Of a DNA stretch of 64,000 bases, positions 20,299 through 63,580 are shown piece after piece. Numbering within the stretch: position 1 is the first letter of the stretch; the number at the start of each line of letters is the position of its first letter. The stretch comes from an uncultured virus (IMG/VR IMGVR_UViG_3300009873_000028). Taxonomy: Duplodnaviria; Heunggongvirae; Uroviricota; Caudoviricetes. Under the pieces are notes generated by a model. The model made no database searches, was not told where the DNA came from, and saw only the letters and a list, made by a program, of their open reading frames with translations. Where the stretch lies: IMG/VR virus record IMGVR_UViG_3300009873_000028. One strand, written 5' to 3'. A program made the position numbers and the translations under genes.

Positions 20299-21357
20299 TT
20301 GAGATATATTTCAAGGGGAAGTCATGACGCCTTCAGAACCTGCCCACGAGCCGGCTACTGGAGGTACCTCTCCGGCCCTTACTCTCCTGCTGGTGTGCTT
20401 GGACTCGAACCAACTAACAGCCCAAGTTATCTCGTATTTGGAAGCGCTTGGCATCTCGCAGCTGAAGGCCTTCTCAGGGGAGAGCCTGCAGAGCAAGCAG
20501 TACGCCCTGCTCTACAGTTTGCCAGGGCAGAAGGATTGGGCGATGCAGACCTTAACCTCCTACTCGCCCTGTCCCTCGCTTGGGAAAGATCCGCTGCTGG
20601 CCCGTTCTTCGAAAAGTACGAGGTAGTAAGCATTGAAGAAGAACTCGTCACTCCGCTCACGTCCAACGTCCAACTCTACAGTAGAGCTGATGCTATCCTT
20701 CGGGAGAGAAGCGACGGAACCCTCTGGGTACTCAACTGGAAAACCGCAGGCGACACCCGGGACTGGAACCGCAAGTGGTTCTATGACATCCAAAGCTGGA
20801 CGGAAAGCCTCGCCGCAGAGGCGAAGCTTGGAGAGCCGGTACGCGGTTGTATATTCTACGGTGTATACAAAGGGCCTATCTACAAAGGAGCAACTAGCTC
20901 GCGTCTCGTCTATGGTTATCGGAGCACTAGTGCTTCGGGACTGGTTAGTTACGGAACCGAGAACGGCGGAAACGCTAGTAGATTTCCTGTATGGCAGGAG
21001 TCCTTTCCGTTCGGCGATGGAATCCATGCGTGGATAAACTGGTTACCTGAAGAGTTCCTCAAGAAGTACTTTGTCGAGTCCGCTCCGCAGATTCGCCAAG
21101 ACGAAGTGGTCGAGGCTTGGCTGCGTCAGGTGGTCGGCTTTGAAAGTGACATCGACCACGTTCTACAGCACGGCTCAGCCCAGGACAAACTTGACTTCTT
21201 CTGGCAGAACTGGGGGGACGACACCTGCGGAAGGTGCAGCTTCTCCCCGCTATGCACCCTGAAGAGCACGCCGGAAACCATGATCGCTGACGGAGTACTA
21301 CGGCCTAGGAAGAAGAGCCCCCGGGATGAGGCGGAACAAAGGGACTTGACAAACTAG
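20299..21357 (+). CDS. Cas4/RecB-like PD-(D/E)XK exonuclease
   Basis: N-terminal CPR, GSAWH, E..RAD..LNWKT, C-terminal CGRC..C (Fe-S cysteines). Confidence 0.8.
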   Translation: MRYISRGSHDAFRTCPRAGYWRYLSGPYSPAGVLGLEPTNSPSYLVFGSAWHLAAEGLLRGEPAEQAVRPALQFARAEGLGDADLNLLLALSLAWERSAAGPFFEKYEVVSIEEELVTPLTSNVQLYSRADAILRERSDGTLWVLNWKTAGDTRDWNRKWFYDIQSWTESLAAEAKLGEPVRGCIFYGVYKGPIYKGATSSRLVYGYRSTSASGLVSYGTENGGNASRFPVWQESFPFGDGIHAWINWLPEEFLKKYFVESAPQIRQDEVVEAWLRQVVGFESDIDHVLQHGSAQDKLDFFWQNWGDDTCGRCSFSPLCTLKSTPETMIADGVLRPRKKSPRDEAEQRDLTN

Positions 21358-21374
21358 CTGAAAAGTCTTAACTT
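21346..21374 (+). promoter_or_regulatory. Sigma70-type promoter of the tRNA array
   Basis: TTGACA-17 nt-TAACTT, then a 12-bp GAAA-loop hairpin (21375-21402) abutting the first tRNA. Confidence 0.75.
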
Positions 21375-21402
21375 AGAAGGGTCCCCGAAAGGGGACCCTT
21401 CT

Positions 21403-21476
21403 GGGAGAATCGTTCAAAGGAAGGACGGCGGTCTCCAAAACCGCTAATCTAGGTTCGAGTCCTAGTTCTCCCGCCA
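21403..21476 (+). tRNA. tRNA-Trp(CCA)
   Basis: Cloverleaf; GCGGT-CT CCA AA-ACCGC; encoded CCA end. Confidence 0.92.
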
Positions 21477-21503
21477 ACTACACGGGAAGCCCTTAGGCTT
21501 CCC

Positions 21504-21630
21504 TGAGTCGTGACACCTGGAGCCTAGCAGCCAGGGACTTTTTGTCCCCGCTACGCAAGGGCTGGCAAGAAGCAAGGGCAAGGAAACGCCTCGCGTTCAT
21601 TCCTCCTTCCTTCCTCAGAGTGTTGGTCCA
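21504..21630 (+). ncRNA. Candidate structured small RNA E1
   Basis: Between perfect hairpins 21484-503 and 21631-656; GCCAG/CTGGC and GGAC/GTCC stems; pyrimidine tract. Confidence 0.45.
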
Positions 21631-21658
21631 AGAGCAGGGCCTTTAGGCCCTGCTCTAT

Positions 21659-21732
21659 GCGGACAAAGAATTACGATAGTTCGGAGCCTTGCCAAGGCTC
21701 AGGCACGGGTTTGACTCCCGTTGTCCGCTCCA
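21659..21732 (+). tRNA. tRNA-Gly(GCC)
   Basis: GAGCC-TT GCC AA-GGCTC; T-loop TTTGACT; CCA. Confidence 0.88.
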
Positions 21733-21734
21733 AA

Positions 21735-21824
21735 GGGGTGGTGACGGAATGGTTTAACGTGCCGGTCTGTAAAACCGCAGCCGGGCTCAGTCCCGTGGAG
21801 GTTCGAGTCCTCCCCACCCCACCA
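21735..21824 (+). tRNA. tRNA-Tyr(GTA)
   Basis: CT GTA AA loop, long variable arm, CCA. Confidence 0.92.
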
Positions 21825-21830
21825 AAAAGC

Positions 21831-21904
21831 GCGGGCCTTACATAAAGGTAGTGTCTCAGCCTTCCAAGCTGAAGGTACGGGTTCGATTCCCGTGGCCCGC
21901 TCCA
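21831..21904 (+). tRNA. tRNA-Gly(TCC)
   Basis: TCAGC-CT TCC AA-GCTGA; CCA. Confidence 0.92.
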
Positions 21905-21906
21905 AC

Positions 21907-21981
21907 CCACCACAGGTGTTACGGCAGCATAGCGGGCTCTTAACCCGACAGGTGAAGGTTCAAGTCCTTCGTGGTGGACCA
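21907..21981 (+). tRNA. tRNA-Lys(CTT)
   Basis: CCACCAC/GTGGTGG acceptor; CT CTT AA loop; CCA. Confidence 0.88.
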
Positions 21982-21985
21982 TTTT

Positions 21986-22061
21986 GCTACCTAAGTTTAG
22001 ATGGTTGAACACCGCCTTGGTAAGGCGGGGGTGCTGGGTTCGATCCCCAGAGGTAGCTCCA
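21986..22061 (+). tRNA. tRNA-Thr(GGT)
   Basis: CCGCC-TT GGT AA-GGCGG; CCA. Confidence 0.9.
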
Positions 22062-22063
22062 AA

Positions 22064-22138
22064 AGGAGAGGAGGAAAGGAAAGACACTCCCCGCTTGGAC
22101 TCCAGACAAGGCAAGCGGAGTACCTTTCCCCCCTCCTT
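22064..22138 (+). ncRNA. Candidate structured small RNA E2 (long interrupted hairpin)
   Basis: Purine 5' arm pairs with pyrimidine 3' arm; inner CCGCTTG/CAAGCGG. Confidence 0.55.
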
Positions 22139-22142
22139 CTTT

Positions 22143-22218
22143 ACCAGGGTAGCCCAACGGCAGAGGCAACAGGCTGAGAGTCTGTTCAGTGAGGGTTCGA
22201 ATCCCTCCCCTGGTACCA
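22143..22218 (+). tRNA. tRNA-Leu(GAG), short variable loop
   Basis: ACAGG-CT GAG AG-TCTGT; CCA. Confidence 0.88.
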
Positions 22219-22254
22219 AGCTGGCTCAGCTGGGTAAAACCGGGGGGCGAGCTT
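22219..22254 (+). ncRNA. Candidate small hairpin E3
   Basis: AGCT..GCTC..CTGG-GTAAAA-CCGG..GGGC..AGCT. Confidence 0.35.
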
Positions 22255-22258
22255 CCTA

Positions 22259-22360
22259 GGCCGCGTGGCGAAACTGGCAAACGCAGGAGACTTAAAACCT
22301 CCTAAACGCACTCCGCTCAAACCGGAGCGACTGTGGGTTCGACTCCCACCGTGGCCACCA
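22259..22360 (+). tRNA. tRNA-Leu(TAA), extra-long variable arm
   Basis: CT TAA AA loop; 102 nt; CCA. Confidence 0.88.
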
Positions 22361-22363
22361 AAA

Positions 22364-22410
22364 AGCAGGGTAGGGCTGGACGTTGAAGAGCCCGTAAATA
22401 GAGCCCTGCT
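22364..22410 (+). ncRNA. Candidate structured small RNA E4
   Basis: AGCAGGG/CCCTGCT closing stem; inner GGGCT/AGCCC. Confidence 0.5.
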
Positions 22411-22415
22411 TCTTT

Positions 22416-22492
22416 AGCCCTGTGATGGAACTGGCATACATACGAGTCTTAGAAACTCGGTTTTAGGGGTTCAACTCCCCTCGGGGCTACCA
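22416..22492 (+). tRNA. tRNA-Leu(TAG), short variable loop
   Basis: CGAGT-CT TAG AA-ACTCG; CCA. Confidence 0.88.
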
Positions 22493-22499
22493 AAACTTA

Positions 22500-22577
22500 G
22501 GGACGTGAGAGGGCTAGGCGTCCTCGCTTGCTTGTCAGGCAAGAGATCGGCGGGTTCGAATCCCGCACGTCCCGCCA
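22500..22577 (+). tRNA. tRNA-Asp(GTC)
   Basis: CTTGC-TT GTC AG-GCAAG; G discriminator; CCA. Confidence 0.9.
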
Positions 22578-22584
22578 CTTCTTC

Positions 22585-22659
22585 GGGGGCTTCAGCTAAC
22601 GGCTAGGCTAGGTGGTTCTCAGCCATCCAACACGGGTTCGACCCCCGTAGCCCCTACCA
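22585..22659 (+). tRNA. tRNA-Glu(CTC)
   Basis: GGTGG-TT CTC AG-CCATC; CCA. Confidence 0.88.
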
Positions 22660-22704
22660 GCTCCGGCAGTCGCGTGATTCCTACTAGGTGGCGATGGACG
22701 GGGC
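22660..22704 (+). ncRNA. Candidate structured small RNA E5
   Basis: GCTCCG/CGGGGC and GTCGC/GCGAT stems around a 17-nt loop. Confidence 0.45.
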
Positions 22705-22709
22705 ATTTC

Positions 22710-22783
22710 GGGTTCCGAGTAGGACGGGAATACGACTGGTTTGCACCCAGTAAGACGGGGTTCGACTCCCCGGGGATCCACCA
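22710..22783 (+). tRNA. tRNA-Ala(TGC)
   Basis: ACTGG-TT TGC AC-CCAGT; G3.U70 identity pair; CCA. Confidence 0.88.
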
Positions 22784-22789
22784 TCTCTT

Positions 22790-22863
22790 CGACCCATGGT
22801 GAAATGAAATCATCGCGCTCTACGAAAGCACGGTTAGGGGTTAAAATCCTCTTGGGTCGGCCA
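22790..22863 (+). tRNA. tRNA-Arg(ACG), atypical T-loop
   Basis: CT ACG AA loop; T-loop TTAAAAT; CCA. Confidence 0.8.
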
Positions 22864-22870
22864 CTTCTGC

Positions 22871-22945
22871 TGCGGGGCAGTCAGGTGACTACCTTAGGCT
22901 CATAACCTAAAGGGCGTTGGGGTTCAAGTCCCTCCTCCGCTACCA
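22871..22945 (+). tRNA. tRNA-Met(CAT), initiator-like 1:72 mismatch
   Basis: TTAGG-CT CAT AA-CCTAA; U1.U72; CCA. Confidence 0.85.
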
Positions 22946-22948
22946 AAC

Positions 22949-23023
22949 GCACCGCTGATGAAAAGGCTATCATGGCGCTCTTACAAGGCGCTCTTCTAGG
23001 TTCGAGTCCTAGGTGGTGCACCA
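22949..23023 (+). tRNA. tRNA-Val(TAC)
   Basis: GCGCT-CT TAC AA-GGCGC; CCA. Confidence 0.9.
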
Positions 23024-23028
23024 ACTTT

Positions 23029-23102
23029 TGGGAAAAGATGTTACGGTAGCATCCTCGCTTTGGAAGCGAGTTGCCCGGGTTCGACTCCCGGTTTCCCAAC
23101 CA
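23029..23102 (+). tRNA. tRNA-Pro(TGG)
   Basis: CTCGC-TT TGG AA-GCGAG; CCA. Confidence 0.9.
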
Positions 23103-23109
23103 CTTCTGT

Positions 23110-23184
23110 GGTGACCTTACGCTAATGGAAAGCGGTCAGGCTGTGAACCTGATGATGCGAGTTCGAGTCTCGTAGGCCACCCCA
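23110..23184 (+). tRNA. tRNA-His(GTG)
   Basis: G-1/C73; TCAGG-CT GTG AA-CCTGA; CCA. Confidence 0.9.
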
Positions 23185-23189
23185 CTTCT

Positions 23190-23263
23190 TGGGACATAGC
23201 ACAATGGCAGTGCAGCGGGCTCTGACCCCGCGCATCAAGGTTCGAGTCCTTGTGTCCCAGCCA
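23190..23263 (+). tRNA. tRNA-Gln(CTG)
   Basis: U1-A72; GCGGG-CT CTG AC-CCCGC; CCA. Confidence 0.92.
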
Positions 23264-23265
23264 AA

Positions 23266-23341
23266 GCAGAGAGAGCTAGTGTGGTCATAGCACGGGTTTG
23301 AAAAGCCCGCCAACGTGGTTCGATCCCACGTCTCTGCACCA
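23266..23341 (+). tRNA. tRNA-Phe(GAA)
   Basis: CGGGT-TT GAA AA-GCCCG; CCA. Confidence 0.9.
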
Positions 23342-23413
23342 GCTAGTCGGGGCACACCCGATGAAAGAGCCAGGGGTATTGGAACGTGTGCTGATACCTA
23401 CACCTGGCCTAGC
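23342..23413 (+). ncRNA. Candidate three-way-junction small RNA E6
   Basis: GCTAG/CTAGC, TCGGG/CCCGA, GCCAGG/CCTGGC, GGTATTGG/CTGATACC. Confidence 0.6.
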
Positions 23414-23417
23414 TTCT

Positions 23418-23493
23418 TCTCCGGAGGTGTCTGCGGTGGCACGCTCGGCTGTTAACCGATGAGGCGCTGGTTCGAATCCAGCCTGGAGAGCCA
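23418..23493 (+). tRNA. tRNA-Asn(GTT)
   Basis: CT GTT AA loop; U1-A72; GCCA end. Confidence 0.9.
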
Positions 23494-23495
23494 AA

Positions 23496-23570
23496 GGGAC
23501 GCAGGTGTTAAGGTTGCATGTCCGCCTTTTAAGCGGTATGGTCAGGGTTCGATTCCCTGGCGTCCCACCA
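23496..23570 (+). tRNA. tRNA-Lys(TTT)
   Basis: CT TTT AA loop; CCA. Confidence 0.9.
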
Positions 23571-23590
23571 ACTCGCGCTACGCGCTCGTT

Positions 23591-23664
23591 GGGACCTTGG
23601 TGAAATGGCATCACCTTCGGCCGATTACCGAAAGTTTGGGGTTCGAGTCCCTGAGGTCCTACCA
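23591..23664 (+). tRNA. tRNA-Ile(GAT), atypical anticodon loop
   Basis: TTCGG-CC GAT TA-CCGAA; CCA. Confidence 0.8.
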
Positions 23665-23669
23665 TTTTT

Positions 23670-23744
23670 GCTAGCAAGGTCTTGAAGGTAAGACGCTCGC
23701 TTCGTAAGCGAGAGGAACGGGTTCGATCCCCGTAGCTAGCTCCA
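23670..23744 (+). tRNA. tRNA-Thr(CGT)
   Basis: CTCGC-TT CGT AA-GCGAG; CCA. Confidence 0.88.
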
Positions 23745-23819
23745 GCACCCGTAGCTCAATGGAAGAGCACCGCCCTCCGAAGGCGGAGGCTGAAGGTTCG
23801 AGTCTTTCCGGGTGCTCCA
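23745..23819 (+). tRNA. tRNA-Arg(CCG)
   Basis: CCGCC-CT CCG AA-GGCGG; CCA; no spacer after the previous tRNA. Confidence 0.92.
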
Positions 23820-23821
23820 AC

Positions 23822-23896
23822 GGCGCTATACGCTAAGGGCTAGGCGGACTGCCTTTCAAGCAGTTGGTCTGGGTTCGAATCCCAGTAGCGCTACCA
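23822..23896 (+). tRNA. tRNA-Glu(TTC)
   Basis: ACTGC-CT TTC AA-GCAGT; CCA. Confidence 0.9.
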
Positions 23897-23898
23897 AA

Positions 23899-23996
23899 AC
23901 AGAGAGTGCCCTAGCACCGCAGGCCACCTGCCGATAATATCAGGATCCTAGGGGGGTCGATAAGGGTGGGGCGAGAGACGTTAACCTCTTCTCTGT
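23899..23996 (+). ncRNA. Candidate multibranched small RNA E7
   Basis: ACAGAGA/TCTCTGT closing stem; CCCTAG/CTAGGG; GCAGG/CCTGC. Confidence 0.55.
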
Positions 23997-23999
23997 CTT

Positions 24000-24071
24000 G
24001 CCGCACGGGCTAAGGAAGCCAAGGGGTTTTGTAAACCTCAGGAAAGGGTTCGATTCCCTTGAGCGGCTCCA
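24000..24071 (+). tRNA. tRNA-Thr(TGT)
   Basis: GGGGT-TT TGT AA-ACCTC; CCA. Confidence 0.88.
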
Positions 24072-24076
24072 GCTTT

Positions 24077-24142
24077 GGGCAGCCGGTCGTGCATGGCGCT
24101 AGGTGCACCTACCAGGTTCGAGTCCTCGACGGTAGCCTGCCC
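24077..24142 (+). ncRNA. tRNA-like mini-RNA E8 with T-arm but no anticodon arm or CCA
   Basis: GGGCAG/CTGCCC, GTCG/CGAC, TGCA/TGCA hairpin, AGG-TTCGAGT-CCT. Confidence 0.6.
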
Positions 24143-24150
24143 TCTGCACA

Positions 24151-24240
24151 GGGAGTAGGGAGGAAGGTTTCTCAAGCCGGCTTATACCCGGTTGGCCAGA
24201 TTAGCCCTAGAACTTGGTTCGAGTCCAAGTGCTCCCACCA
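24151..24240 (+). tRNA. tRNA-Ile(TAT) with long variable arm
   Basis: GCCGG-CT TAT AC-CCGGT; about 20-nt variable region; CCA. Confidence 0.8.
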
Positions 24241-24244
24241 CTTC

Positions 24245-24318
24245 AGCCCCACAAGATGGAACTTAGCAGAGACTTCTAATCTCTTGCGCCGAGGGTTCGA
24301 TTCCCTCTGGGGCTTCCA
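24245..24318 (+). tRNA. tRNA-Arg(TCT)
   Basis: AGAGA-CT TCT AA-TCTCT; CCA. Confidence 0.88.
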
Positions 24319-24405
24319 GGAAGAGACCCGAACGGTCAGGAGCAGGTTTGCTAAACCTGTACAGGCTTTAAACCTCAGTGGGTTCGACCCCCACCTCTTC
24401 CGCCA
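24319..24405 (+). tRNA. tRNA-Ser(GCT)
   Basis: CAGGT-TT GCT AA-ACCTG; long arm; GCCA. Confidence 0.9.
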
Positions 24406-24476
24406 CCTACACCAGGCTTATGAGAGGCACACCGCGGTGGGGAGGGGTGCTGTAGGAAACCTGGTCCTCCCCCTGC
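24406..24476 (+). ncRNA. Candidate small RNA E9 with competing or pseudoknotted pairings
   Basis: CCTACA/TGTAGG, ACCAGG/CCTGGT, GCAC/GTGC, GGGGAGG/CCTCCCC. Confidence 0.5.
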
Positions 24477-24480
24477 TTTC

Positions 24481-24555
24481 GCTCCCATAGCTCAAAGGAC
24501 AGAGCAAGAGTTTCCTAAACTCAAGATCGGGGTTCGAGTCCCTGTGGGAGTACCA
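24481..24555 (+). tRNA. tRNA-Arg(CCT)
   Basis: TT CCT AA loop; CCA. Confidence 0.92.
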
Positions 24556-24562
24556 CCTTAAT

Positions 24563-24648
24563 GGAAGGCACCCGAATGGTTAGGAACTAGTCTTGAAAAC
24601 TAGGGTGAGCAACCGCTCTACAGGGTTCGATTCCTTGGCCTTCCGCCA
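24563..24648 (+). tRNA. tRNA-Ser(TGA)
   Basis: CTAGT-CT TGA AA-ACTAG; long arm; GCCA. Confidence 0.9.
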
Positions 24649-24696
24649 AACCTTTAACTCCTTTAACTCTTGCTGTTGTTTAACGACGAGGGGAAG

Positions 24697-25194
24697 ATGA
24701 AATGGAGAACCCTCTCCGGGGAGGAAATCCCGGACATAGCCGAGTTTGTGAAGGCTGCCTCCGCATCTGGTCAGGTCGTGCACATTGGCACCGATTCACT
24801 CCAGACGGGGAGATATACACAGTTTGTGACAGTTGTGGCCGTACTCACACCTTCAAAAGGAGGAAGGGCGGCTTACGCCCGGGAGATAGTCCCGAGAATC
24901 ACCTCGCTCCGGGAGAGACTGCTGCGCGAAGTCTGGAAGAGCGTGGAGCTTGGGATGACCCTGGGCTCTCTTGTCCCTGGGGAGTTGAACATCCATGTGG
25001 ATGCCAACCCAGAGGAAAAGCACATGAGCAGTAAGTATGTGCAAGAGCTGGTGGGGCTGGTAGTAGGGCAGGGCTTCAAGGCCCTCATCAAGCCTGACAG
25101 CTGGGCCGCAACCCACGCCGCAGACCATGTGGTAAGATCACTAAACGTCCGGGCCGCGAGGCCCTCCGGTGCAGTGGCGAAGAGGAAACGCTGA
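24697..25194 (+). CDS. RNase H-like YkuK (DUF458) family protein
   Basis: IGTDS, RLLREVWKS, IHVDAN, KPDSWAATHAADH. Confidence 0.85.
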   Translation: MKWRTLSGEEIPDIAEFVKAASASGQVVHIGTDSLQTGRYTQFVTVVAVLTPSKGGRAAYAREIVPRITSLRERLLREVWKSVELGMTLGSLVPGELNIHVDANPEEKHMSSKYVQELVGLVVGQGFKALIKPDSWAATHAADHVVRSLNVRAARPSGAVAKRKR

Positions 25195-25242
25195 GAGCTG
25201 CAACCTCTCTATTCAAGGGTTCGAATCCCTTCTGCACCTCCA
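25168..25242 (+). tRNA. tRNA-Cys(GCA)
   Basis: GAGAG-CT GCA AC-CTCTC; U73; CCA. Confidence 0.92.
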
Positions 25243-25247
25243 AAGCT

Positions 25248-25321
25248 AGGGGAGTCGTCTAAAGGTAAGGCGCGGGACTTTGAATCCCGCTATCGGGGTT
25301 CGAATCCCTGCTCCCCTGCCA
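25248..25321 (+). tRNA. tRNA-Gln(TTG)
   Basis: CGGGA-CT TTG AA-TCCCG; CCA. Confidence 0.9.
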
Positions 25322-25359
25322 TAGCGCCAGCGCAGCTGGCGCAAGAAAGGACCAACACT

Positions 25360-26019
25360 CTGAAGGTAGTTTGCATTTCTGACACACACTACTACCCCGT
25401 TGAGATCCCCGTCCCAGACGGGGATCTTCTGCTGCATGCAGGTGACCTCACCTACCAAGGCACCCTCGCGCAAATAGAGGCTGCAGGTGAATGGCTTCGC
25501 TCCCTCCCCCACAAGCATAAAGTGATCATCGCTGGGAACCACGACTTCCTCTTCGAAGACAACCCAGGCCGAGCCAGGGCTGCGCTCGGAGACGGTAAGG
25601 ATGGGCTGATCTATTTGCAAGATGAACTCGTGGAAGTGGAAGGGTTGAAGGTTTTCGGCTCCCCCTGGAGCACCTACTTCATGGACTGGGCCTTTGGCGT
25701 GCGAGAGAGGGAGTATGAAGAGGTGTGGGGTCGCATCCCCGAGGGCCTCGACATCCTCATTACCCACGGCCCGCCTCTGCGCATTCTAGACTCAGCGCCG
25801 AACAAGTTTCACCTGGGCGACCCCGGGCTGCTGAAGGTAGTGCAGGAGCGTGCTCCACGCCTCCATGTCTTCGGCCACATTCACCACTCCCACGGAACCG
25901 CCCAGATAGGGCAAACCCTCTTCGTGAACGCCGCGGTGTGCGATGAGCTTTATGCTCACACCCAGCCGCCTATCGTGCTAGACTTGCGGAAGGACAAGGT
26001 GATGGAGCTTAGGAGTTAA
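25360..26019 (+). CDS. Metallophosphoesterase, probable CTG start
   Basis: ISDTH, HAGD, GNHD, THGPP, FGHIH; the first motifs lie upstream of the ORF-track start. Confidence 0.85.
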   Translation: MKVVCISDTHYYPVEIPVPDGDLLLHAGDLTYQGTLAQIEAAGEWLRSLPHKHKVIIAGNHDFLFEDNPGRARAALGDGKDGLIYLQDELVEVEGLKVFGSPWSTYFMDWAFGVREREYEEVWGRIPEGLDILITHGPPLRILDSAPNKFHLGDPGLLKVVQERAPRLHVFGHIHHSHGTAQIGQTLFVNAAVCDELYAHTQPPIVLDLRKDKVMELRS

Positions 26020-39429: not shown

Positions 39430-42400
39430 CTATTCCTCATCTTCCCCTGGGAGCCTAGGCCTGCTGATCCGGCCTCCCATGAACTCTGACATCACTTCTT
39501 CGTTCTCTCTGTTAGAGCGCTCCACTTCCCCCGTCTTGAACTTCTTTCTGTACTCCCCACGCTTCCTCGTCGCCACGCCGAAGCGCTGGTTAAGCTGGTG
39601 CACCTTGGAGCGTAGGCGCGCGCGCTTGCGCTCCTCTGGAATCTTAGCGTAAGCTTGTGAGTTCACGAAGTCGTTCAGCAGCTTGGTGACTAGGGGCATG
39701 TACTCCTTCTGGAACTCCTCCAGCTCCGCAGGGGTCATGTTGTAGTAGTTGAGGCGGCCTGAGGAGTCGCGGCCGGGGAGAGGCACTGTGGTGCCTAGGT
39801 TAGGTCCTGCTACCCCCCTGAGCCTTAGCTCCTTCCGGTTTGCCCGCTCGCGCATCTTAACGTCCTCGTCTGTGCGCCAAGCCTTAGCACCCCGCGGTAG
39901 GTCTTCCTGGATACCATTCCCCATCAACATCATAGGTATGAGCCAGCTTACCTGTGGGTTCTCCTTCACCACAGCGTTCATGTCGCTAACGCTCATAGGC
40001 TCCACAAGGTTCCACGCAAGAGTGGTCGCTGCACTGACCGGAGCGTTCTTGAAGTCGATAGCCTGCCCTTCCAGGTTCCGCTGAGCAAGGGTGTCGATAA
40101 CCGCTCCGGCTCCCGGTCCTAGCTTGCTCCGCAGGAAGTTCCAGATAGTCCCTCCCACGTTCTTCTTTTCGATGATGCCGGTCTCCCGGTCCTTTTCCTC
40201 CCCGGAGATCACCTGGCGCCCAGCGCGTAGGAACTGGAACCACCCACCCCCACCGTCGTACACGATGTCCCCAACCTTGATCTTTCCAAAGTCGGTAGAA
40301 CGGGAGTCCAACTCAACTGTAGGCTCCTGACCCGTAAGGGCTGCGAGGGTGAGCACAAATCCGTTCACCGCGGATGCGCCGGCAACCGCCCGCATGAACT
40401 GCCTCCGTGCATAGCGCGTGAGTGCTGGGTTCTTGTAGCTCTTGAAGCCTCTTCCGCCGGTCAGGTCCCAGAGGTACTTTCCCCTGCTGAAGTTTAGCTG
40501 GCCTGAGTAGAAGATGTGGTTAACGAACTTGTTGATCTTCTCACCACCAGGGAGCTTAGCCCTGGACGCCGCCGTGTTGATGTGTTCAGCAAGCGTCTTG
40601 AACTCTTCCTTCTTGGTGATCTTGAAAGCCTGAGGATCCACGTCGTGGAGGTACTTCAGGTACTCCAACCCGAACTTGGTGGCATCCCTCATCCCCTTGT
40701 TGATGTAGTAGGCAAAGGAACGCTTCGACCCGTCAGCGAGCCACCTTAGTGCCCTAGCTGGAGGAACCTTCTTCTCCACCGCCGAGATCACCTTGTGGAG
40801 CTTGTCAAAGCCTACCCATGCTTCGTGCTGACCCGCACCCTCATAAATGTAGTTGACCCCCATCTTCTCGCCCATGCGGAACCAAGGGTCAGCTTTCAGC
40901 GCTGCGGTGGCGGCGTCAGCGTTCTTCTGGGTTCCGAAGACCTTCAAGCTATCCCACATGTTCTGTACAAAGCTGGCGTCAGCCTGGGGGTTGTAGCGCT
41001 TCCGGGTGAAGAGGTTAGCAATATCCTGGGCGATCTGGTCAGAGGTGAGCAGGAACATCTGCCGGAAAGCGGCGCTCACGTCAGCCATGGTCTTGAGGGG
41101 GCGCGTTACGTTGGCCCACTCACCAACGGTTTCCCAGGCCTGCCAACTTCCCCGTGCGCCAGTGCTCTCCTTGACCTGGTGAACCTTGTTCAGCTTCTTC
41201 TCCAGTGCGGCAACTTCTTCTGAGTAGAAGCCCCTTCCAACTTCCCGAGGCTCTTCAGAGAACAGGTCTAGTTGTCTTCCACGCCTTAGAGGTATGTTCT
41301 CTAGGGCTGGCTCTTGTGCTTGCATGCGCTTGATGTTCTTCTCGAACTCAGCCTTTAGCTTTTGGATTTCTGGGCTGTTCTCTAGGATGTTGTACGCTCG
41401 GTAGAACTTAGCTTCTTGGGCCGATGCACCTGCCCGCTTAATCATATTCGCTTTGGTGTGTGGGGATACAAGCGCTTCACTTACCTCCCCCACCTTTCCA
41501 CCAGGCAGTTCTAGGCTACTTCGCCTCTCATGCGGACCAGCAACATGATGGGCAAGTTCATGAATCACGTTGTCAACAACTGTTTCAGGCGAGTAGCGGA
41601 GATCAGCGTAGTTAAGAATCATGGCCCTACGCTGTGGTGCATAGCTAGTAGGTATGTGCTTGCCAAGTTGTATCTTTAGATTAGCCAACTCTGGTTGTGC
41701 CAACAGTCGTGCTGCTATCGGTTTGATTTTGTTTAGCGCGGCTGACGCCATATTAAACGTTCGGTCAATAATTCTACGTTCTGCCGGGTTCTTTAGAATG
41801 GCTGTGTCAGCGACTTCTCCTTCAGGACGCCAAGAATATCCGGCCTCCCGCGGAGCCTCCAGATCCCATGGATCTGGGGTAGAGTCGGCTACCGGCCCTT
41901 CCTTCTCCAGCTGGATGGCTATGCGCTCCATCAGGTCTTCGCCGCGGCCCGCTAGACTCTTCATCTTGTAACGTTCCCGCTGCTTAGCGCTTACGCCCCT
42001 ACCTACGCTCTCTTCGAACTTCCTTTGCTTAGTCCGAAGGTAGTCGATAGCAGGAAGCTCCTCGGTGGGCTTTAGCTTTCCTAGCGCAACCTGGGCCTTA
42101 ACCCAGTCCACCATTCCTGGGGTGCTAGTACCGCTGGTTTTTGCGTCCTTGGGCCGAACGCTTACAACGCCGCCGCCTCCTGGGGTGCGTGGGATAGTTT
42201 GCTTGTCGAGCCACTCTTGGGTTTCCTTAGGCAACAGGGCTTCTTCATAAGCCTTCCGCACGCGCGTTTGCGCGCGTGCGGTAACGCGACCTTCTGCGCC
42301 TTCAACCTGGATCTGTTCCCACTCAGCATCTAGCTTTCGCCGGAGCTGTTCCTTGAACTTACCCAGCTCTCCACGGTGGAGAACGTACTCTTCCTCAAAA

Positions 42401-45400
42401 TCGATCTGCCGTCCATCGAGGTAGTCCTCTACCAGGTTGCGGTACTCGTAGCCGCGCTCGAGGGAGGCCTTACCTTCGGCCACGTTCTTGAGGCGACCTT
42501 CCGCACCAAGCCTGTCGATGAAGCTCTTAAGCTCAGTCTCTCCCTGCTTGAGGTTCTCTTCGATGAACTTGCGCTTAGCTAGGCGGCTGGCCACTGTTTC
42601 AGGGATGATAAGTCCCCTAGCCTTGCGCGGCTTCGCGGCGAAGCGAGAGGTGAGGGTTCCTGGAACTTCAGGTTCTGCCTTACCCCTGAGCTTCTCGCTG
42701 CTCTTGAACTGGGACGCCTGGGTCTTGACGGTGAGTTCACCCTTGGCCGCGTCCGCTTCCAGCTGCTCGAGCCTGCGCATGCCAGCGCGGCCACCAGTTG
42801 GGGCTGCCTTCTCCGTGAGCGCGTCCATGCTGAGAGGCGTCTTCTCAAAGATAGGTGTGCCCTTAGCGGAGGTCTTCGGTACCGCGAAGCGTTCAAACGC
42901 TACAGGCTGAGCAGTAGTGCGTGCTGCCTTCCAAAGCTCTGAGCCCTTGATCTTAGAGAGCAGAGCTTCAACCTTGCTGACGTCTCTTCCTGCAGCCTTC
43001 CCAAGTTTGATGCTCTTCTCCAGGCTGTCTACCACCTTAGGCAGCATAGCCTTAGAAGTGGCAATCTTGCTCACCATTCTGGAAGGAGAGAAGACCTTTT
43101 CAGTACCGGGAACCTGTACAGTAGCAGGCACCAGCTGCTTGCCCTTCAGCTTGAGCCCAAGCTCTTCGCCCAGCTCCCGGATAGCGCGATCACCCTTGCG
43201 AAGCTGCTCTTCCAACACGTTTCCTAGTTCGTCAGCCCAGACGATCTGGGTGCGTCCCACTTCCTTCCGCGGCAGGGCTGCGCCCTTCCGCTGCACATAA
43301 GGAGATAGCTTCCGCTCTGGGAGGCGCTTCGCAGCTTCTCCAAGCAGCGGCTTCTTGCTTCCCCGCTCCTTCAGGTCCTCGAGGAGCCTTGCCCTACTCT
43401 CCTTCGCGGTGGCTCCCTCTGGGTAGCGAGAGAACCTTGGACGCTCTCCAAGCCTAGGCTGCATCTCTGCTGCGGCGATGTCATGTAGGCCCGTCATGAA
43501 GCGCTGAGCGATGGCCTCTGCCGAGCGAGCCACGCCCTTGATCGGCCTCGCCGCCCTAGCAAGTGCTAGCCGTGCCCGCAGTCTTCCTGCTGGTGTGAAG
43601 CCAACCTTACCTAGAACCTCCGCCGTAACCTGCTTTCCTGCGTTAAGTAGCTGCGCCACCCTCTGGGTAGCCATCTGGTCCGCGCGGCTTCCGGAAGCTG
43701 CGGAACCTAGCGGCTCGGGAGTCTCCAGCTTCCTGCGGAGGGGCTCCATGTTTTCTCTTCCACGGTAAACGAAAGGCTCCGCCTTCTTAACAGGCTTACC
43801 CTCCAGCTGCTCGGGAGCTGCTGGCTTAGACCTTTCTGCTACCTTGAGGGGTTCCTTCAGCCTCTCCCCGGTGTAAGGGATCCTAGCTGGCTTCTCCATG
43901 GTAGCAAGCTTCTGCATAGCAGCCCGGCGTGCTCGCTCATCCGCGGAGCGGGCCGCTTCTATAGCGCGCTGGCGAATCTTCTCGTTAACTGCTGCTTCCG
44001 CACTTCCGGTGCGAATCTTTCCCTTGCCGGTGAGCTTCGCCCGCTTCTTCGCCTTAGGCTTCTCCTTAGGCGGAGCGACCATCTGCTCCCGGAGCACTGG
44101 GGGTTCTGAAGGCTTAGCAGCTTCGGCTAGCTCCCTTGCCAGCTTCTCTTCTAGGATCCTCCGGCCTTCAGCATACTCCTCTGGGTAAAAGCCCTCACCC
44201 ATCTGGCGAGGCTCTTCGCCACCGCCCTTCTCAGCAAGCTTCGCGGCTCTGCGGCGTGCCCGCAGTTCCTTCATGCTCAGGCGATCTGCGCCTAGGAAAG
44301 TGTCAGTGGTAGCTCTGCGGAACTTAGCTCCGAGGAAGGGCACATGCTCAGCGAGCTGCCTTGCCCGCTCAGAGAGCTTCTCTGCCCAGGACTTAACCTC
44401 TTCGGTGGTGCCCCCCTTAGGTGGCTTCTGCCGGAGCCGCAGCACTTCCTTCGCAGCGTCCTCTGCTGCAGCTTGCTTCGTGCTGGCTTGCTCGAACGGG
44501 GTGCCTGGCTGCTCGAAGCGCTGTGGGCGGAGGGAAGCTCGGGTCATCCTGGGGCTTACCCCCAGCTGCCTAGGGCTCTGACCAAAGAGCCTAGGCGCCT
44601 TCGCCGTAACAGCCTTCAGCCGCTTGAAGAGAGCTGCGCCTTCCTTAGTTTCCTTCCCACCTAGCTGATTCCGGATGTACTTGTCTACATCGTTGTAGAC
44701 GCTCCAAAGCTCCCCGGGCTGGATGCCAAGCTCCTTGAGCTGCGCCACGTCAGTGACTCTACCTTGGGCGAAGGCTTTCTCCAGTTCATCAAGGGCTTCC
44801 ACGGCCTTAGGCTTCGCAGACCTTCCCACAGCAGCCTTGTCCTGGCGGCGTGCGCGCACGTAGTCCAGCACAGCCTTGGTGCGAGGAAGCTCTACGATGT
44901 CCGTCACGGGTGCCGTAGGCACCCGCAGCTGCCTGCCGGTGAGTGCCCGCATTGCTCGGTCAGGGGCCTTAGGCGCTTCAGGCTTCTCACTCTTTGGGTA
45001 GAACTCATCCCCTACAGCGCGTGGGCCTTCCACCTCCAGGGTGGGGTACGGAGCTTCGGGGCGATTGGCGAAATGCTCAGGGATCACCGGCCTAGCAGCT
45101 TCCGGCGTGCCCATGGTCTCGTGGAAGAGCTGGAGGTCCCGTAGTGGGAAGGTAGCTCCGTGAGGATGCGCTGCCTCTGGTGGGAGGAAAGCCCCCTTGA
45201 GCAGGCCAGTGCGCTCAACGTCTCCTGCGGCTTCAGCTAGTAGCGGGTGATTCTTCACCGCGTCTGCTATCCCTTGCTCCCTGAAGAGCTGGGTGTAGCT
45301 CTTCAGCCGGTCGTCAAAGTGACTGCCGGAAGCATGCCCTGCCTTGGTGCCTGGAGGTCCAGGAAGCATCCCGGACGCGCCACCACGCTCGGTCGCGTGC

Positions 45401-63154: not shown

Positions 63155-63580
63155 TTAGCCTCGCTTAGAACCAGCCAACTTTGGTCTGCCAACCGATAGC
63201 TGCCCACGCATCTTCGTTTCTATCGCATGGCAGTTTGCACAGAGCAGTCTACACCAGTGTAGCTCATCTAGCAACTTAGTTACGCTCTTCATGCCAAAGT
63301 AGGTAGGTAGATTAGCCTTCTTGTTGGCCACATGGTCAAACTGCAAGGCACGCTCATCCGTAAAGCCACACGATTCACACTTGCCACCCAGTTGGCGCAG
63401 AGCAAACATGCGATTCGCCAAATAACGCTGCTTCCGTTCTCCAGCCCTGCTACGCATAAACTGGCGATTGCTTGTGTTCTTCTTCTGTCTTTCAACAGGA
63501 TCAGCTAGAATTTGCTTTCTCCGTGGATAGTAGACAGTTTTCCAGGTATCTTTGTTTTCCTGGTAGTAGCTAGATGACAT
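63155..63580 (-). CDS. HNH-like endonuclease
   Basis: LGGKCESCG..ALQFDHV..LLCANCH; lower GC than flanks. Confidence 0.85.
   Translation of the reverse strand: MSSSYYQENKDTWKTVYYPRRKQILADPVERQKKNTSNRQFMRSRAGERKQRYLANRMFALRQLGGKCESCGFTDERALQFDHVANKKANLPTYFGMKSVTKLLDELHWCRLLCANCHAIETKMRGQLSVGRPKLAGSKRG

What the first reader, a model, noticed from the sequence alone, without database searches (positions are those of the whole stretch)
21484..24480. tRNA array interleaved with about nine structured non-tRNA RNAs: a possible tRNA-processed small-RNA cassette
Seen: most tRNAs are separated by only 0-7 nt of A-rich or CT-rich linker. Nine gaps instead hold 35-130 nt elements: 21504-630, 22064-138, 22219-254, 22364-410, 22660-704, 23342-413, 23899-996, 24077-142 and 24406-476. 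Most have paired 5' and 3' ends and the same short AAA / CTTCT linkers as the tRNAs. They differ from each other in sequence and fold, and none has an anticodon arm plus CCA. Established: RNase P and 3' trimming cut at tRNA ends, so these spacers would be released as discrete RNAs. Inference: the phage uses tRNA maturation to express a panel of stable small RNAs, for example decoys or inhibitors of host defence proteins. I cannot assign them to known families by eye.
Basis: partly seen in the sequence, partly recalled or inferred. Interest (0 to 1): 0.85.

Follow-up and report, generated by a model that had tools for sequence, protein, structure and literature searches.

The report
Phage tRNA array spacers, mostly transient
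An uncultured phage's block of 33 tRNA genes does hold nine folded non-tRNA spacers, but only two are kept in its nearest relative. The largest looks like a leader that pairs with the end of the block, as ribosomal RNA precursors do, not like one of a panel of decoy RNAs.

Summary
There are 33 tRNA genes on the + strand (21403-25321), all with encoded CCA. None of the nine is a tRNA or a known Rfam family.

The "panel of functional small RNAs" reading is only partly supported.
- Two elements are conserved and covary with the one close relative: G1b (21504-21630; 36 pairs, 7 compensatory, 0 broken) and G4 (22361-22415).
- G8 is tRNA debris, and G3 possibly.
- G2, G5, G6, G7 and G9 have no homologue in 107 related loci. 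In relatives the same slots are empty or hold HNH genes, small ORFs or a tmRNA. G7-G9 fold no better than shuffles.

New here: the 3' tail of G1b (21615-21629) is perfectly complementary over 15 nt to 25349-25363, just after the last tRNA. The same head-to-tail pairing, with different sequences and compensatory changes, recurs in five relatives and in a distant phage group. In relatives it starts at a boxA-like motif like that of Acidobacteriota rrn leaders. G1 is therefore most likely an rRNA-style leader closing the array.

This scan noted such closing helices before on other DNA. Nothing is shown at the RNA level.

The parts
21346..21374 (+). sigma70-like promoter candidate upstream of tRNA-Trp (TTGACA, 17 nt, TAACTT)
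   Evidence: Read from the sequence. L001 has the same layout (TTGACA-17-TATCTT). The consensus scan did not list it. Inference only.
21375..21402 (+). 12-bp GAAA-loop hairpin directly before tRNA-Trp
   Evidence: Perfect hairpin.
21403..25321 (+). Array of 33 tRNA genes, all with encoded CCA, covering 20 amino acids
21484..21503 (+). G1a: 8-bp hairpin, CTTA loop, after tRNA-Trp (boxB-like position)
   Evidence: z -2.6. Compared with L001, 7 pairs, 4 of them compensatory.
21504..21630 (+). G1b: conserved three-stem RNA domain of the array leader
   Evidence: 36 pairs, 7 compensatory, 0 broken against L001; slid controls give 0-2. Covariance model R1 finds only the window and L001 in 720 kb. 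MFE alone is not exceptional (z -0.15).
21615..21629 (+). Arm A: 3' tail of G1b, one strand of the head-to-tail helix
   Evidence: 15-nt perfect complement of 25349-25363. It is the longest among all non-tRNA segment pairs; the next best is 9.
21631..21656 (+). G1c: 11-bp hairpin, TTTA loop, 2 nt before tRNA-Gly
   Evidence: z -5.8. 10 pairs, 5 compensatory against L001.
22062..22142 (+). G2: 81-nt long hairpin, purine-rich 5' arm with SD-like GGAGG and CU-rich 3' arm; orphan
   Evidence: z -2.8 to -3.4; 10 end pairs (3 of 300 shuffles reach that). No homologue.
22219..22258 (+). G3: 40-nt element, possibly an internally deleted tRNA
   Evidence: D-arm-like match to a tRNA; 4 of 40 shuffles score as high. 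z about -2. The + strand is far more stable than the - strand (-18.4 vs -7.1 kcal/mol).
22361..22415 (+). G4: conserved 55-nt stem with an inner hairpin
   Evidence: 90% identical over 52 nt to L001 2441-2492, but in another slot. 14 pairs, 1 compensatory; all 5 substitutions spare the stems. Model R2 finds no other copy.
22660..22709 (+). G5: 50-nt orphan element
   Evidence: z about -2; + strand -19.7 vs - strand -9.5 kcal/mol. No homologue; the slot is 5 nt in L001.
23342..23417 (+). G6: 76-nt orphan, closing stem plus two hairpins
   Evidence: z -2.7. No tRNA likeness. The same slot in L001 holds an HNH ORF.
23571..23590 (+). 20-nt spacer with a weak 4-bp hairpin
   Evidence: z -0.9.
23897..23999 (+). 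G7: 103-nt orphan spacer
   Evidence: z -0.9. No homologue.
24072..24150 (+). G8: tRNA debris (T arm plus acceptor 3' strand)
   Evidence: Best match to 410 tRNAs scores 31; 0 of 40 shuffles reach it. The 3' 43 nt are 86% identical to L001 4894-4936. z +0.3.
24406..24480 (+). G9: 75-nt orphan spacer; a pseudoknot is possible by eye
   Evidence: z +0.7. The same slot in L001 holds an HNH ORF.
24697..25194 (+). DUF458 / RNase H-like ORF inside the array
   Evidence: PF04308 E 3.5e-28; phrog_11311.
25324..25342 (+). 8-bp hairpin after the last tRNA
25349..25363 (+). Arm B: partner of arm A. Overlaps the AAAGGA Shine-Dalgarno and the putative CTG start of the next ORF
25360..26019 (+). Metallophosphoesterase ORF (start codon inferred)
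   Evidence: PF00149 E 1.4e-12. No ATG, GTG or TTG before 25522 in this frame.

Best explanation
The nine spacers are real but are not one kind of thing.

(1) G1 is the leader of the main tRNA block. It consists of a hairpin, a conserved three-stem domain (G1b) and a second hairpin. The single-stranded 3' tail of G1b (21615-21629) base-pairs over 15 nt with 25349-25363, right after the last tRNA. In the primary transcript this would close the 3.7-kb block (32 tRNAs plus the DUF458 gene) into a loop, as leader-trailer helices close pre-16S and pre-23S rRNA. Such a helix would be a likely RNase III or end-protection site. It would also cover the ribosome-binding site of the next gene until it is cut or opened.

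(2) G4 is a small conserved folded RNA of unknown role. It occupies different slots in the two phages.

(3) G8, and perhaps G3, are remains of tRNA genes.

(4) G2, G5, G6, G7 and G9 are lineage-specific fillers of slots that turn over fast. They would be cut out as by-products of tRNA maturation, and there is no evidence that they are kept for a function.

Shown: anatomy, conservation, covariation and complementarity. Inferred: transcription as one precursor, helix formation, RNase III involvement and any effect on translation.
For: Conservation of the spacers. Ten queries (the nine spacers plus the 20-nt spacer) were compared with 29, then 102, then 5 further related loci. Only the closest relative, L001, matches, and only for G1 (73% over 131 nt), G4 (90% over 52 nt) and the 3' half of G8.

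G1b: 36 of 36 pairs are kept in both sequences, 7 by double changes; slid controls give 0-2. G1a has 4 compensatory pairs of 7 and G1c has 5 of 10.

G4: all 5 differences are either in a loop or form one compensatory pair.

G8: the T arm and acceptor strand match tRNAs, with 0 of 40 shuffles scoring as high.

Turnover. Across 46 related loci there are 407 junctions, bimodal in length (219 are 12 nt or less). Of 151 gaps of 25-1000 nt, 100 cluster with no other gap. L001 has four HNH ORFs and one HNH remnant in its gaps. L003 has a tmRNA in a gap.

Head-to-tail pairing. It is the longest perfect complement among all non-tRNA segment pairs in:
- WIN: 15 nt, next best 9
- L001: 15, next 10
- L007: 15, next 10
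- L112: 13, next 12
It is tied for longest in L111 (10, plus 7 after a bulge) and L055 (11). The arm sequences differ between lineages.

In L007, L111 and L112, 10 contiguous columns are Watson-Crick in all three, 3 of them with compensatory double changes and 0 broken. WIN and L001 keep 15 bp by extending a shared 12-nt core on opposite sides.

A distant phage group (L024, L025, L094, L096, L097) pairs the gap after its first tRNA with a site after its last block tRNA over 13 nt. The variant L089 has two compensatory changes.

In L007, L111, L112, L039 and L037 arm A starts at GTCTTTGACAA. This resembles the boxA GCTCTTTGAAAAC, which itself forms the leader strand of the 16S leader-trailer helix in two Acidobacteriota genomes that carry DUF458 homologues.

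In L055 arm B is followed by an intrinsic-terminator-like hairpin with a T run.
Against: No RNA data: the helix, the precursor and the excised spacers are all unobserved.

The window has no boxA-like motif in or near the array (at most 3 mismatches of 12). The rrn analogy is therefore incomplete here.

A 15-bp helix is short for a classical RNase III site (recalled knowledge).

WIN and L001 share their arms by descent, so they count as one lineage.

L039 shows only a weak pairing: score 21, and 7 of 103 background windows score as high.

Of the 17 more distant arrays analysed:
- five (L024, L025, L094, L096, L097) show the head-to-tail pairing at top rank and L089 at second rank;
- ten (L014, L019, L022, L029, L073, L074, L087, L088, L091, L092) show none above background;
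- L026 ends before its tail and cannot be judged.
Eleven further loci could not be tested because the array touches the locus end.

The arms could instead be DNA-level inverted repeats. In the distant group arm B overlaps a promoter-like TTGACA-17-TACAAT.

G1b alone is no more stable than shuffles (z -0.15), and its structure was derived from the same two sequences on which the pairs were counted.

Absence of homologues does not prove that G2, G5 and G6 are functionless. They fold well (z -2 to -3), and G3 and G5 are much more stable on the transcribed strand.

An HNH-gene remnant in L001 also scores z -4.1, so folding scores discriminate poorly.
Confidence: 0.55

Rival explanations
1. One reading: the array is an expression cassette for a panel of stable small RNAs, released by RNase P and 3' trimming, that act as decoys or inhibitors of host defence or as regulators.
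For: Elements start 0-3 nt after a CCA and end in a normal tRNA leader. Six of nine fold better than shuffles and seven of nine have paired ends. G3 and G5 are far more stable on the transcribed strand. G1b and G4 are conserved with covariation. G1b, G2 and G9 carry CU-rich CCUCC tracts and G2 carries GGAGG, which could pair with ribosome-binding sites or mimic them (by eye). A relative carries a real non-tRNA RNA, a tmRNA, in such a slot. T4 has stable RNA species I and II in its tRNA region (PMC2330249, Figure 1 legend passage). Earlier notes of this scan describe stem-framed RNAs docked on tRNA ends in other phages.
Against: Seven of nine have no homologue of the whole element in 107 related loci, and in the nearest relative their slots are empty or hold HNH genes. 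G7, G8 and G9 fold like shuffles. G8 is tRNA debris. The elements share no frame sequence. Nothing matches Rfam. In relatives, 45 non-tRNA gaps have median z -1.16 and show no excess of paired ends (13 observed, 9.5 expected). No target complementarity above background was found in the window, except the G1b arm.
Confidence: 0.15
2. Arms A and B are DNA-level inverted repeats, for example sites for a DNA-binding protein or recombinase, or an inverted partial copy of a promoter. They would not be strands of an RNA helix.
For: In the distant group, arm B lies in the spacer and -10 of a TTGACA-17-TACAAT promoter-like site, and arm A is its inverted partial copy. L111 and L112 carry a third, inverted copy in mid-array. 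Mismatches outside the core give 10 G.U against 6 A.C (my tally of the table), which is not decisive.
Against: The arm sequences are unrelated between close lineages whose proteins are 62-83% identical, yet they stay complementary within each genome. That fits RNA pairing better than a conserved protein site. No inversion of the block is seen in any of the six genomes with arms. None of the 18 ORFs that I scanned is a recombinase. In L007 three G.U pairs extend the helix to 19 contiguous pairs on the + strand only. The host rrn leader-trailer helix has the same build, with boxA Us opposite Gs.
Confidence: 0.15
3. G1b is released and acts in trans as an antisense small RNA. It would block the ribosome-binding site of the first gene after the array.
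For: Arm B covers AAAGGA and the inferred start in the window. In L001 it covers AAAGGA-N10-ATG, although the downstream genes differ. Arm A lies in the unpaired 3' tail of the G1b consensus fold.
Against: In L007, L111 and L112 arm B lies between two tRNA genes, not at an ORF start. In L055 it is followed by a terminator. The start codon in the window is an inference.
Confidence: 0.1
4. All spacers, G1b and G4 included, are neutral leftovers of tRNA decay and of inserted and lost genes.
For: Fast turnover of slots. tRNA debris in G8. An HNH remnant folds with z -4.1.
Against: 7 + 4 + 5 + 1 compensatory pairs and no broken pair in G1b, G1a, G1c and G4. G4 is more conserved than its flanking tRNAs (90% against 76-85%). 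tblastn with 55 gap ORFs of relatives gives no convincing hit inside a window spacer.
Confidence: 0.05

Closest known systems
Leader-trailer (processing) helices of bacterial rRNA operons, with the boxB-boxA-boxC leader; cut by RNase III
   Same: A sequence near the head of a multi-kb stable-RNA transcription unit pairs with one just past its end. Hairpins sit beside the arms. In relatives the head arm starts at a boxA-like motif, as in the Acidobacteriota rrn leaders read here.
   Different: It encloses tRNAs and a protein gene, not an rRNA. The helix is only 15 bp in the window. No boxA-like motif is found in the window. The first tRNA lies outside the helix. Cleavage is untested.
Phage T4 stable RNA species I and II in the tRNA gene region
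   Same: Non-tRNA RNAs of unknown function encoded among phage tRNA genes on the same strand (PMC2330249, Figure 1 legend passage). That they are co-processed with the tRNAs is my recollection.
   Different: T4 has two such RNAs; this phage has nine spacers, of which only two are conserved.
tRNA-spacer-derived regulators of E. coli (3'ETS-leuZ sponge, internal spacers)
   Same: Spacers of tRNA precursors released by tRNA processing can be functional RNAs. I saw this only in search listings and abstracts; the details are recalled.
   Different: Those act through Hfq and pair with known small RNAs. No partner is known here apart from the array's own trailer.
Homing endonuclease genes in phage tRNA clusters (T4 SegB; HNH genes of mycobacteriophage clusters)
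   Same: Relatives carry HNH ORFs in the same inter-tRNA slots. For SegB I read the abstract and passages of PMC2330249; for the HNH genes, a discussion passage of PMC6409571.
   Different: The window's spacers encode no such protein, and no remnant is detectable.
tRNA-linked pre-miRNA hairpins of murine gammaherpesvirus 68 (recalled)
   Same: A virus uses tRNA-end processing to release a hairpin RNA docked on a tRNA-like element.
   Different: It is a eukaryotic system using RNase Z and Dicer. There is no evidence of equivalent products here.

Membership tests
tRNA (RF00005) or pseudo-tRNA, for each of the nine spacers | Match to the tRNA covariance model (cloverleaf) | tested here: not met
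   No tRNA-model hit at E<=1 inside any of the nine spacers. ARAGORN at 80% threshold adds none on the + strand.
tRNA (RF00005) or pseudo-tRNA, for each of the nine spacers | Residual sequence likeness to tRNAs | tested here: inconclusive
   G8: met (score 31, 0 of 40 shuffles). G3: weak (4 of 40). The other seven: none (32-40 of 40 shuffles score as high).
Any described RNA family (Rfam 15) | Score at or above the family's gathering threshold | tested here: not met
   Only tRNA-clan hits pass. The mir-1249 and mir-505 hits over G2 and G6 score 22 and 21 bits against thresholds of 83 and 60.
rrn-type leader-trailer helix | Complementary segments flanking the stable-RNA block | tested here: met
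   15 nt perfect, 21615-29 against 25349-63; the next-best segment pair is 9 nt.
rrn-type leader-trailer helix | Pairing kept through sequence change in relatives | tested here: met
   Five different arm sequences in six genomes. 3 compensatory columns of 10 in L007, L111 and L112. 2 compensatory changes between L024-type and L089. L039 is ambiguous.
rrn-type leader-trailer helix | boxA antitermination motif in the leader | tested here: not met
   No match with at most 3 mismatches of 12 in 21300-25400. The motif is present in relatives L007, L111, L112, L039 and L037. The host-type boxA was read.
rrn-type leader-trailer helix | Cleavage by RNase III | not testable with these tools
   No RNA run holds the stretch.
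tRNA-processed functional small RNA (3'ETS-like, T4 species I/II-like) | Discrete stable transcript with defined ends | not testable with these tools
   No RNA holder is listed.
tRNA-processed functional small RNA (3'ETS-like, T4 species I/II-like) | Conservation with covariation in relatives | tested here: inconclusive
   Met for G1b and G4. Not met for the other seven. Only one relative is informative.
Remnant of an HNH homing endonuclease gene | Residual protein similarity to HNH ORFs in relatives' slots | tested here: not met
   tblastn with 55 gap ORFs gives no convincing hit inside a spacer. The best hits fall on tRNA genes, and the spacers are short, so power is low.

The most novel reading that the evidence does not exclude
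Phage tRNA arrays are built like rRNA operons: a leader whose tail pairs with the trailer closes the whole block. The inter-tRNA slots inside that loop serve as plug-in sites from which tRNA processing releases fast-evolving small RNAs (G1b, G4, G2, G6 and others) that act on host translation or defence.
Probability: 0.15. Interest if true: 0.8.

Novelty: new variant of a known kind. Interest (0 to 1): 0.5.

Why it matters
If the head-to-tail helix is real, large phage tRNA arrays are matured as one closed precursor, in the way cells handle rRNA. That would explain how 30-odd tRNAs are expressed together and kept apart from neighbouring mRNAs. It would also link expression of the downstream gene to array processing.

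The result also tempers a tempting idea. Well-folding spacers between phage tRNAs are mostly short-lived fillers of recombination hot spots, not a conserved arsenal of small RNAs. Two elements, G1b and G4, remain good candidates for bench tests.

I found no paper that describes a leader-trailer helix around a phage tRNA array. The library lacks most subscription journals.

Tried and rejected
- GenBank phages: only tRNA-sized matches, 0 of 131 records covering most of the query.
- Whole genome of the window: none is held.
- Sequencing runs: no RNA holder listed. The one DNA holder may be the source sample, so I did not lay reads.
- Exact-pattern scans of IMG/VR with a G1b core and a G4 core: only the L001 contig.
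- Covariance models R1 (G1b) and R2 (G4) over 100 sources (720 kb): no further copy.
- HNH or other protein remnants in the spacers: none.
- Spacers as repeats of, or antisense to, other parts of the window: background only, except arm A.
- I first read TTGACAAC in the relatives' post-Trp gaps as a -35 box. I dropped that reading because the -10 spacing is inconsistent and the host rrn boxA comparison fits better.
- G1c resembles 25064-25085 inside the DUF458 ORF (19 of 22). This is not seen in L001, so I treat it as chance.
- RNAduplex on whole segments was uninformative, because long GC-rich sequences pair everywhere.
- PDB sequence search with the DUF458 protein: nothing.
- The search for T4 rnaC/rnaD papers failed on a term-length rule and I did not repeat it.

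Full report
WHAT THE WINDOW IS. The window is part of an uncultured tailed phage. It encodes a portal, a major head protein, a tail fibre, a split family-A DNA polymerase with a UDG domain, a ParB-like protein and a PD-(D/E)XK exonuclease. GenBank phages share only single-tRNA-sized pieces with the array: 131 records match, and none covers most of the query. No whole genome is held for the window.

ARAGORN at default settings finds 29 tRNA genes, all between 21403 and 25321 on the + strand. Rfam and a relaxed ARAGORN run add Leu-taa, Met-cat, Ile-tat and Ser-gct. That makes 33 genes for all 20 amino acids, each with an encoded CCA.

Of the 32 junctions, 21 are 0-8 nt, one is 20 nt and one is 519 nt. 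The 519-nt junction is a DUF458/RNase H-like ORF (PF04308, E 3.5e-28). None of the nine matches the tRNA model or any other Rfam family at E<=1, apart from two chance-level miRNA hits.

Z-scores against 300 dinucleotide shuffles (one search is similar):

| Element | z |
|---|---|
| G1 | -4.5 |
| G2 | -2.8 |
| G6 | -2.7 |
| G4 | -2.5 |
| G5 | -2.0 |
| G3 | -1.9 |
| G7 | -0.9 |
| G8 | +0.3 |
| G9 | +0.7 |

The G1 signal comes from its two flanking hairpins (z -2.6 and -5.8). The core G1b alone has z -0.15. Seven of nine elements have at least 5 pairs between their two ends, against 17-47% of shuffles. In G2, G4 and G7 this partly reflects the generic A-rich trailer after CCA pairing with the generic CT-rich leader before the next tRNA.

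RELATIVES. The DUF458 protein served as a handle. It brought in 29 loci from IMG/VR, 73 from metagenomes and 5 from genome contigs. Almost all the viral loci carry tRNA arrays.

Only the closest relative, L001 (83% protein identity), shares spacer sequence with the window:
- G1, 73% over 131 nt;
- G4, 90% over 52 nt;
- the 3' 43 nt of G8.
No other locus matches any of the ten spacers queried.

The slots turn over quickly. There are 407 junctions in 46 close loci, and their lengths are bimodal. Of 151 gaps of 25-1000 nt, 100 cluster with no other gap; L006 was dropped from this count as a near-duplicate of L007. The one large cluster is the DUF458 gene. L001 carries four small HNH ORFs and one HNH C-terminal remnant in its gaps, two of the ORFs in the slots where the window has G6 and G9. 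Other relatives carry further small ORFs, which I listed mechanically and did not verify. L003 carries a tmRNA at 121 bits.

In the relatives, 45 non-tRNA gaps of 30-130 nt have median z -1.16. Sixteen of the 45 are at or below -2. Their ends pair no more often than expected (13 observed, 9.5 expected). The HNH remnant scores z -4.1. Good folding is therefore common in these spacers and is not a mark of function.

WHAT EACH SPACER IS.
- G8 matches the T arm and 3' acceptor strand of tRNAs, with 0 of 40 shuffles scoring as high. G3 has a weak D-arm likeness (4 of 40). The other seven show no tRNA ancestry.
- tblastn with 55 ORFs from relatives' gaps gives no convincing hit inside a window spacer.
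- G4 keeps 14 pairs. All five differences from L001 lie in a loop or form one compensatory pair. It sits between Leu-taa and Leu-tag in the window but between Thr-ggt and Leu-gag in L001, while the flanking tRNAs stay in order.
- G1b keeps 36 of 36 pairs in both phages, seven of them by double changes; slid controls give 0-2. The structure was derived from these same two sequences, which is a caveat.
- The flanking hairpins G1a and G1c keep their place and their YTTA loops while changing 4 of 7 and 5 of 10 pairs on both sides.
- Covariance models of G1b and G4 find no other copy in 720 kb of related DNA.

THE HEAD-TO-TAIL PAIRING. A self-search showed that the invariant 3' block of G1b (21615-21629) is perfectly complementary over 15 nt to 25349-25363 (E 0.009 against the whole window). 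That site lies 28 nt after the last tRNA, behind a small hairpin. It covers the AAAGGA ribosome-binding site and the inferred CTG start of the metallophosphoesterase ORF. L001 has the same arrangement although its downstream gene is different. The two phages reach 15 bp by extending a shared 12-nt core on opposite sides.

I then compared all non-tRNA segments of each array with one another. The pair [quoted passage not shown] gives the longest perfect complement in four loci and ties for longest in two:

| Locus | Length of head-to-tail match (nt) | Next best (nt) |
|---|---|---|
| WIN | 15 | 9 |
| L001 | 15 | 10 |
| L007 | 15 | 10 |
| L112 | 13 | 12 |
| L111 | 10, plus 7 after a bulge | tied |
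| L055 | 11 | tied |

L111 and L112 are longer stretches of the L004 and L005 contigs, fetched. The arm sequences differ between lineages. L007, L111 and L112 can be aligned: ten contiguous columns are Watson-Crick in all three, three of them through double changes, and none is broken. L039 is ambiguous. L113 lacks the head of its array.

I also examined 17 more distant arrays; 11 further loci were skipped because the array touches the locus end.
- One lineage (L024, L025, L094, L096, L097) pairs the gap after its first tRNA with a site about 35 nt after its last block tRNA over 13 nt. L089 does the same, at second rank, with two compensatory changes.
- Ten show nothing above background, and L026 ends before its tail.

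THE rRNA ANALOGY. Earlier notes of this scan on other genomes describe closing helices around tRNA arrays that begin behind a boxA signal. That lead made me re-read the motif GTCTTTGACAA, at which arm A begins in L007, L111, L112, L039 and L037. I had first taken it for a -35 box.

DUF458 homologues at 64-66% identity lie in Acidobacteriota chromosomes. I read the 16S flanks in two of those genomes. The leader carries GCTCTTTGAAAAC, and this motif plus the next 15 nt or so is complementary to the 16S trailer, with leader Us opposite trailer Gs. L007 has the same build, with three G.U pairs extending the helix to 19 pairs on the + strand only. In L055 arm B directly follows the last tRNA and is followed by a terminator-like hairpin with a T run.

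The window itself has no boxA-like motif in the array, allowing up to 3 mismatches of 12. So the analogy holds for the helix here, not for antitermination.

READING. G1 is best read as the leader of the main tRNA block, whose tail closes the block by pairing with the trailer. G4 is a small conserved RNA of unknown role. G8, and perhaps G3, are tRNA debris. G2, G5, G6, G7 and G9 are lineage-specific fillers that would be excised as by-products.

The rivals are not excluded: functional small RNAs, DNA-level inverted repeats, and G1b acting in trans on the downstream ribosome-binding site. In the distant group arm B overlaps a promoter-like TTGACA-17-TACAAT. L111 and L112 have a third inverted copy in mid-array.

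There is no RNA evidence. No RNA run holds the stretch (listed under Tried and rejected).

WHAT IS KNOWN.
- T4 has "RNA species I and II" in its tRNA region and the homing endonuclease SegB among its tRNA genes (PMC2330249; abstract and passages including the Figure 1 legend).
- HNH genes in mycobacteriophage tRNA clusters are noted in a discussion passage of PMC6409571.
- tRNA-spacer-derived sponges of E. coli appear in the search listing; the details are recalled.
- DUF458/YkuK is an uncharacterised member of the RNase H1 clade (PMC3985635, passages).
- Searches for a leader-trailer helix around phage tRNA arrays found no paper. The library lacks most subscription journals.

VERDICT. The decoy-panel interpretation is only partly supported. 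The leader-trailer reading of G1 is the most interesting result, and this scan has seen its like on other DNA.

Noticed in passing
window 1-64000: Large excess of perfect hairpins. There are 63 distinct ones with stems of at least 8 bp (26 with at least 10 bp), against 0-7 (0-1) in ten dinucleotide shuffles. Many have 3-nt loops such as GAA closed by C-G, and several sit at ORF ends. G1a, G1c and the hairpins at 21375 and 25324 belong to this population. Their role (terminators, processing sites or promoters) is unknown.
   Followed up: partly
window 24697-25194; loci L001-L103: A DUF458/YkuK RNase H-like gene lies inside or beside tRNA arrays in most of the 29 viral loci scanned. The 73 metagenome loci also hold relatives of the gene, but only part of them were scanned for tRNAs. 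They come from several phage groups at 25-83% identity. Homologues at 64-66% identity in Acidobacteriota MAG chromosomes sit between single tRNA genes. This suggests a tRNA-linked function and an acidobacterial host.
   Followed up: partly
L001 2044-2365, 3821-4080, 4157-4432, 5200-5473, 3602-3668; L004, L005 and L008 gaps; L003 2424-2800: Relatives' inter-tRNA slots hold four small HNH ORFs plus one HNH remnant, ORFs with a GGQ motif (release-factor or ArfB-like, judged by eye) and a tmRNA.
   Followed up: partly
window 24151-24240 and the Ile-tat genes of relatives: The tRNA with anticodon TAT (read as Ile) is about 90 nt long with a long variable arm. It scores only on the tRNA-Sec model in Rfam (30.9 bits). 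ARAGORN gives lengths of 89-94 nt in L001-L005 and 73-75 nt in L007 and L008. This is unusual for tRNA-Ile.
   Followed up: no
window 25322-25363: The metallophosphoesterase ORF has no ATG, GTG or TTG before 25522. A CTG at 25360, 9 nt after AAAGGA, is the likely start, and it lies inside arm B.
   Followed up: partly
window 21615-21629: Arm A (AGAGTGTTGGTCC) resembles the 5' end of 16S rRNA (AGAGTTTGATCC) as read in the Acidobacteriota loci. This is by eye only and may be chance.
   Followed up: no
window 39430-46362 (-): A 2310-aa ORF with no Pfam or PHROG match lies next to tail-fibre genes.
   Followed up: no
window about 63188-63448 (-): An HNH endonuclease-like ORF near the portal gene, similar to the HNH ORFs in L001's tRNA slots (E 1e-10).
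   Followed up: no
L111 4976-4984; L112 5627-5635: A third, inverted copy of the arm core lies in the Thr-cgt|Phe-gaa gap of two relatives and carries the same G/A difference as the other two copies.
   Followed up: partly
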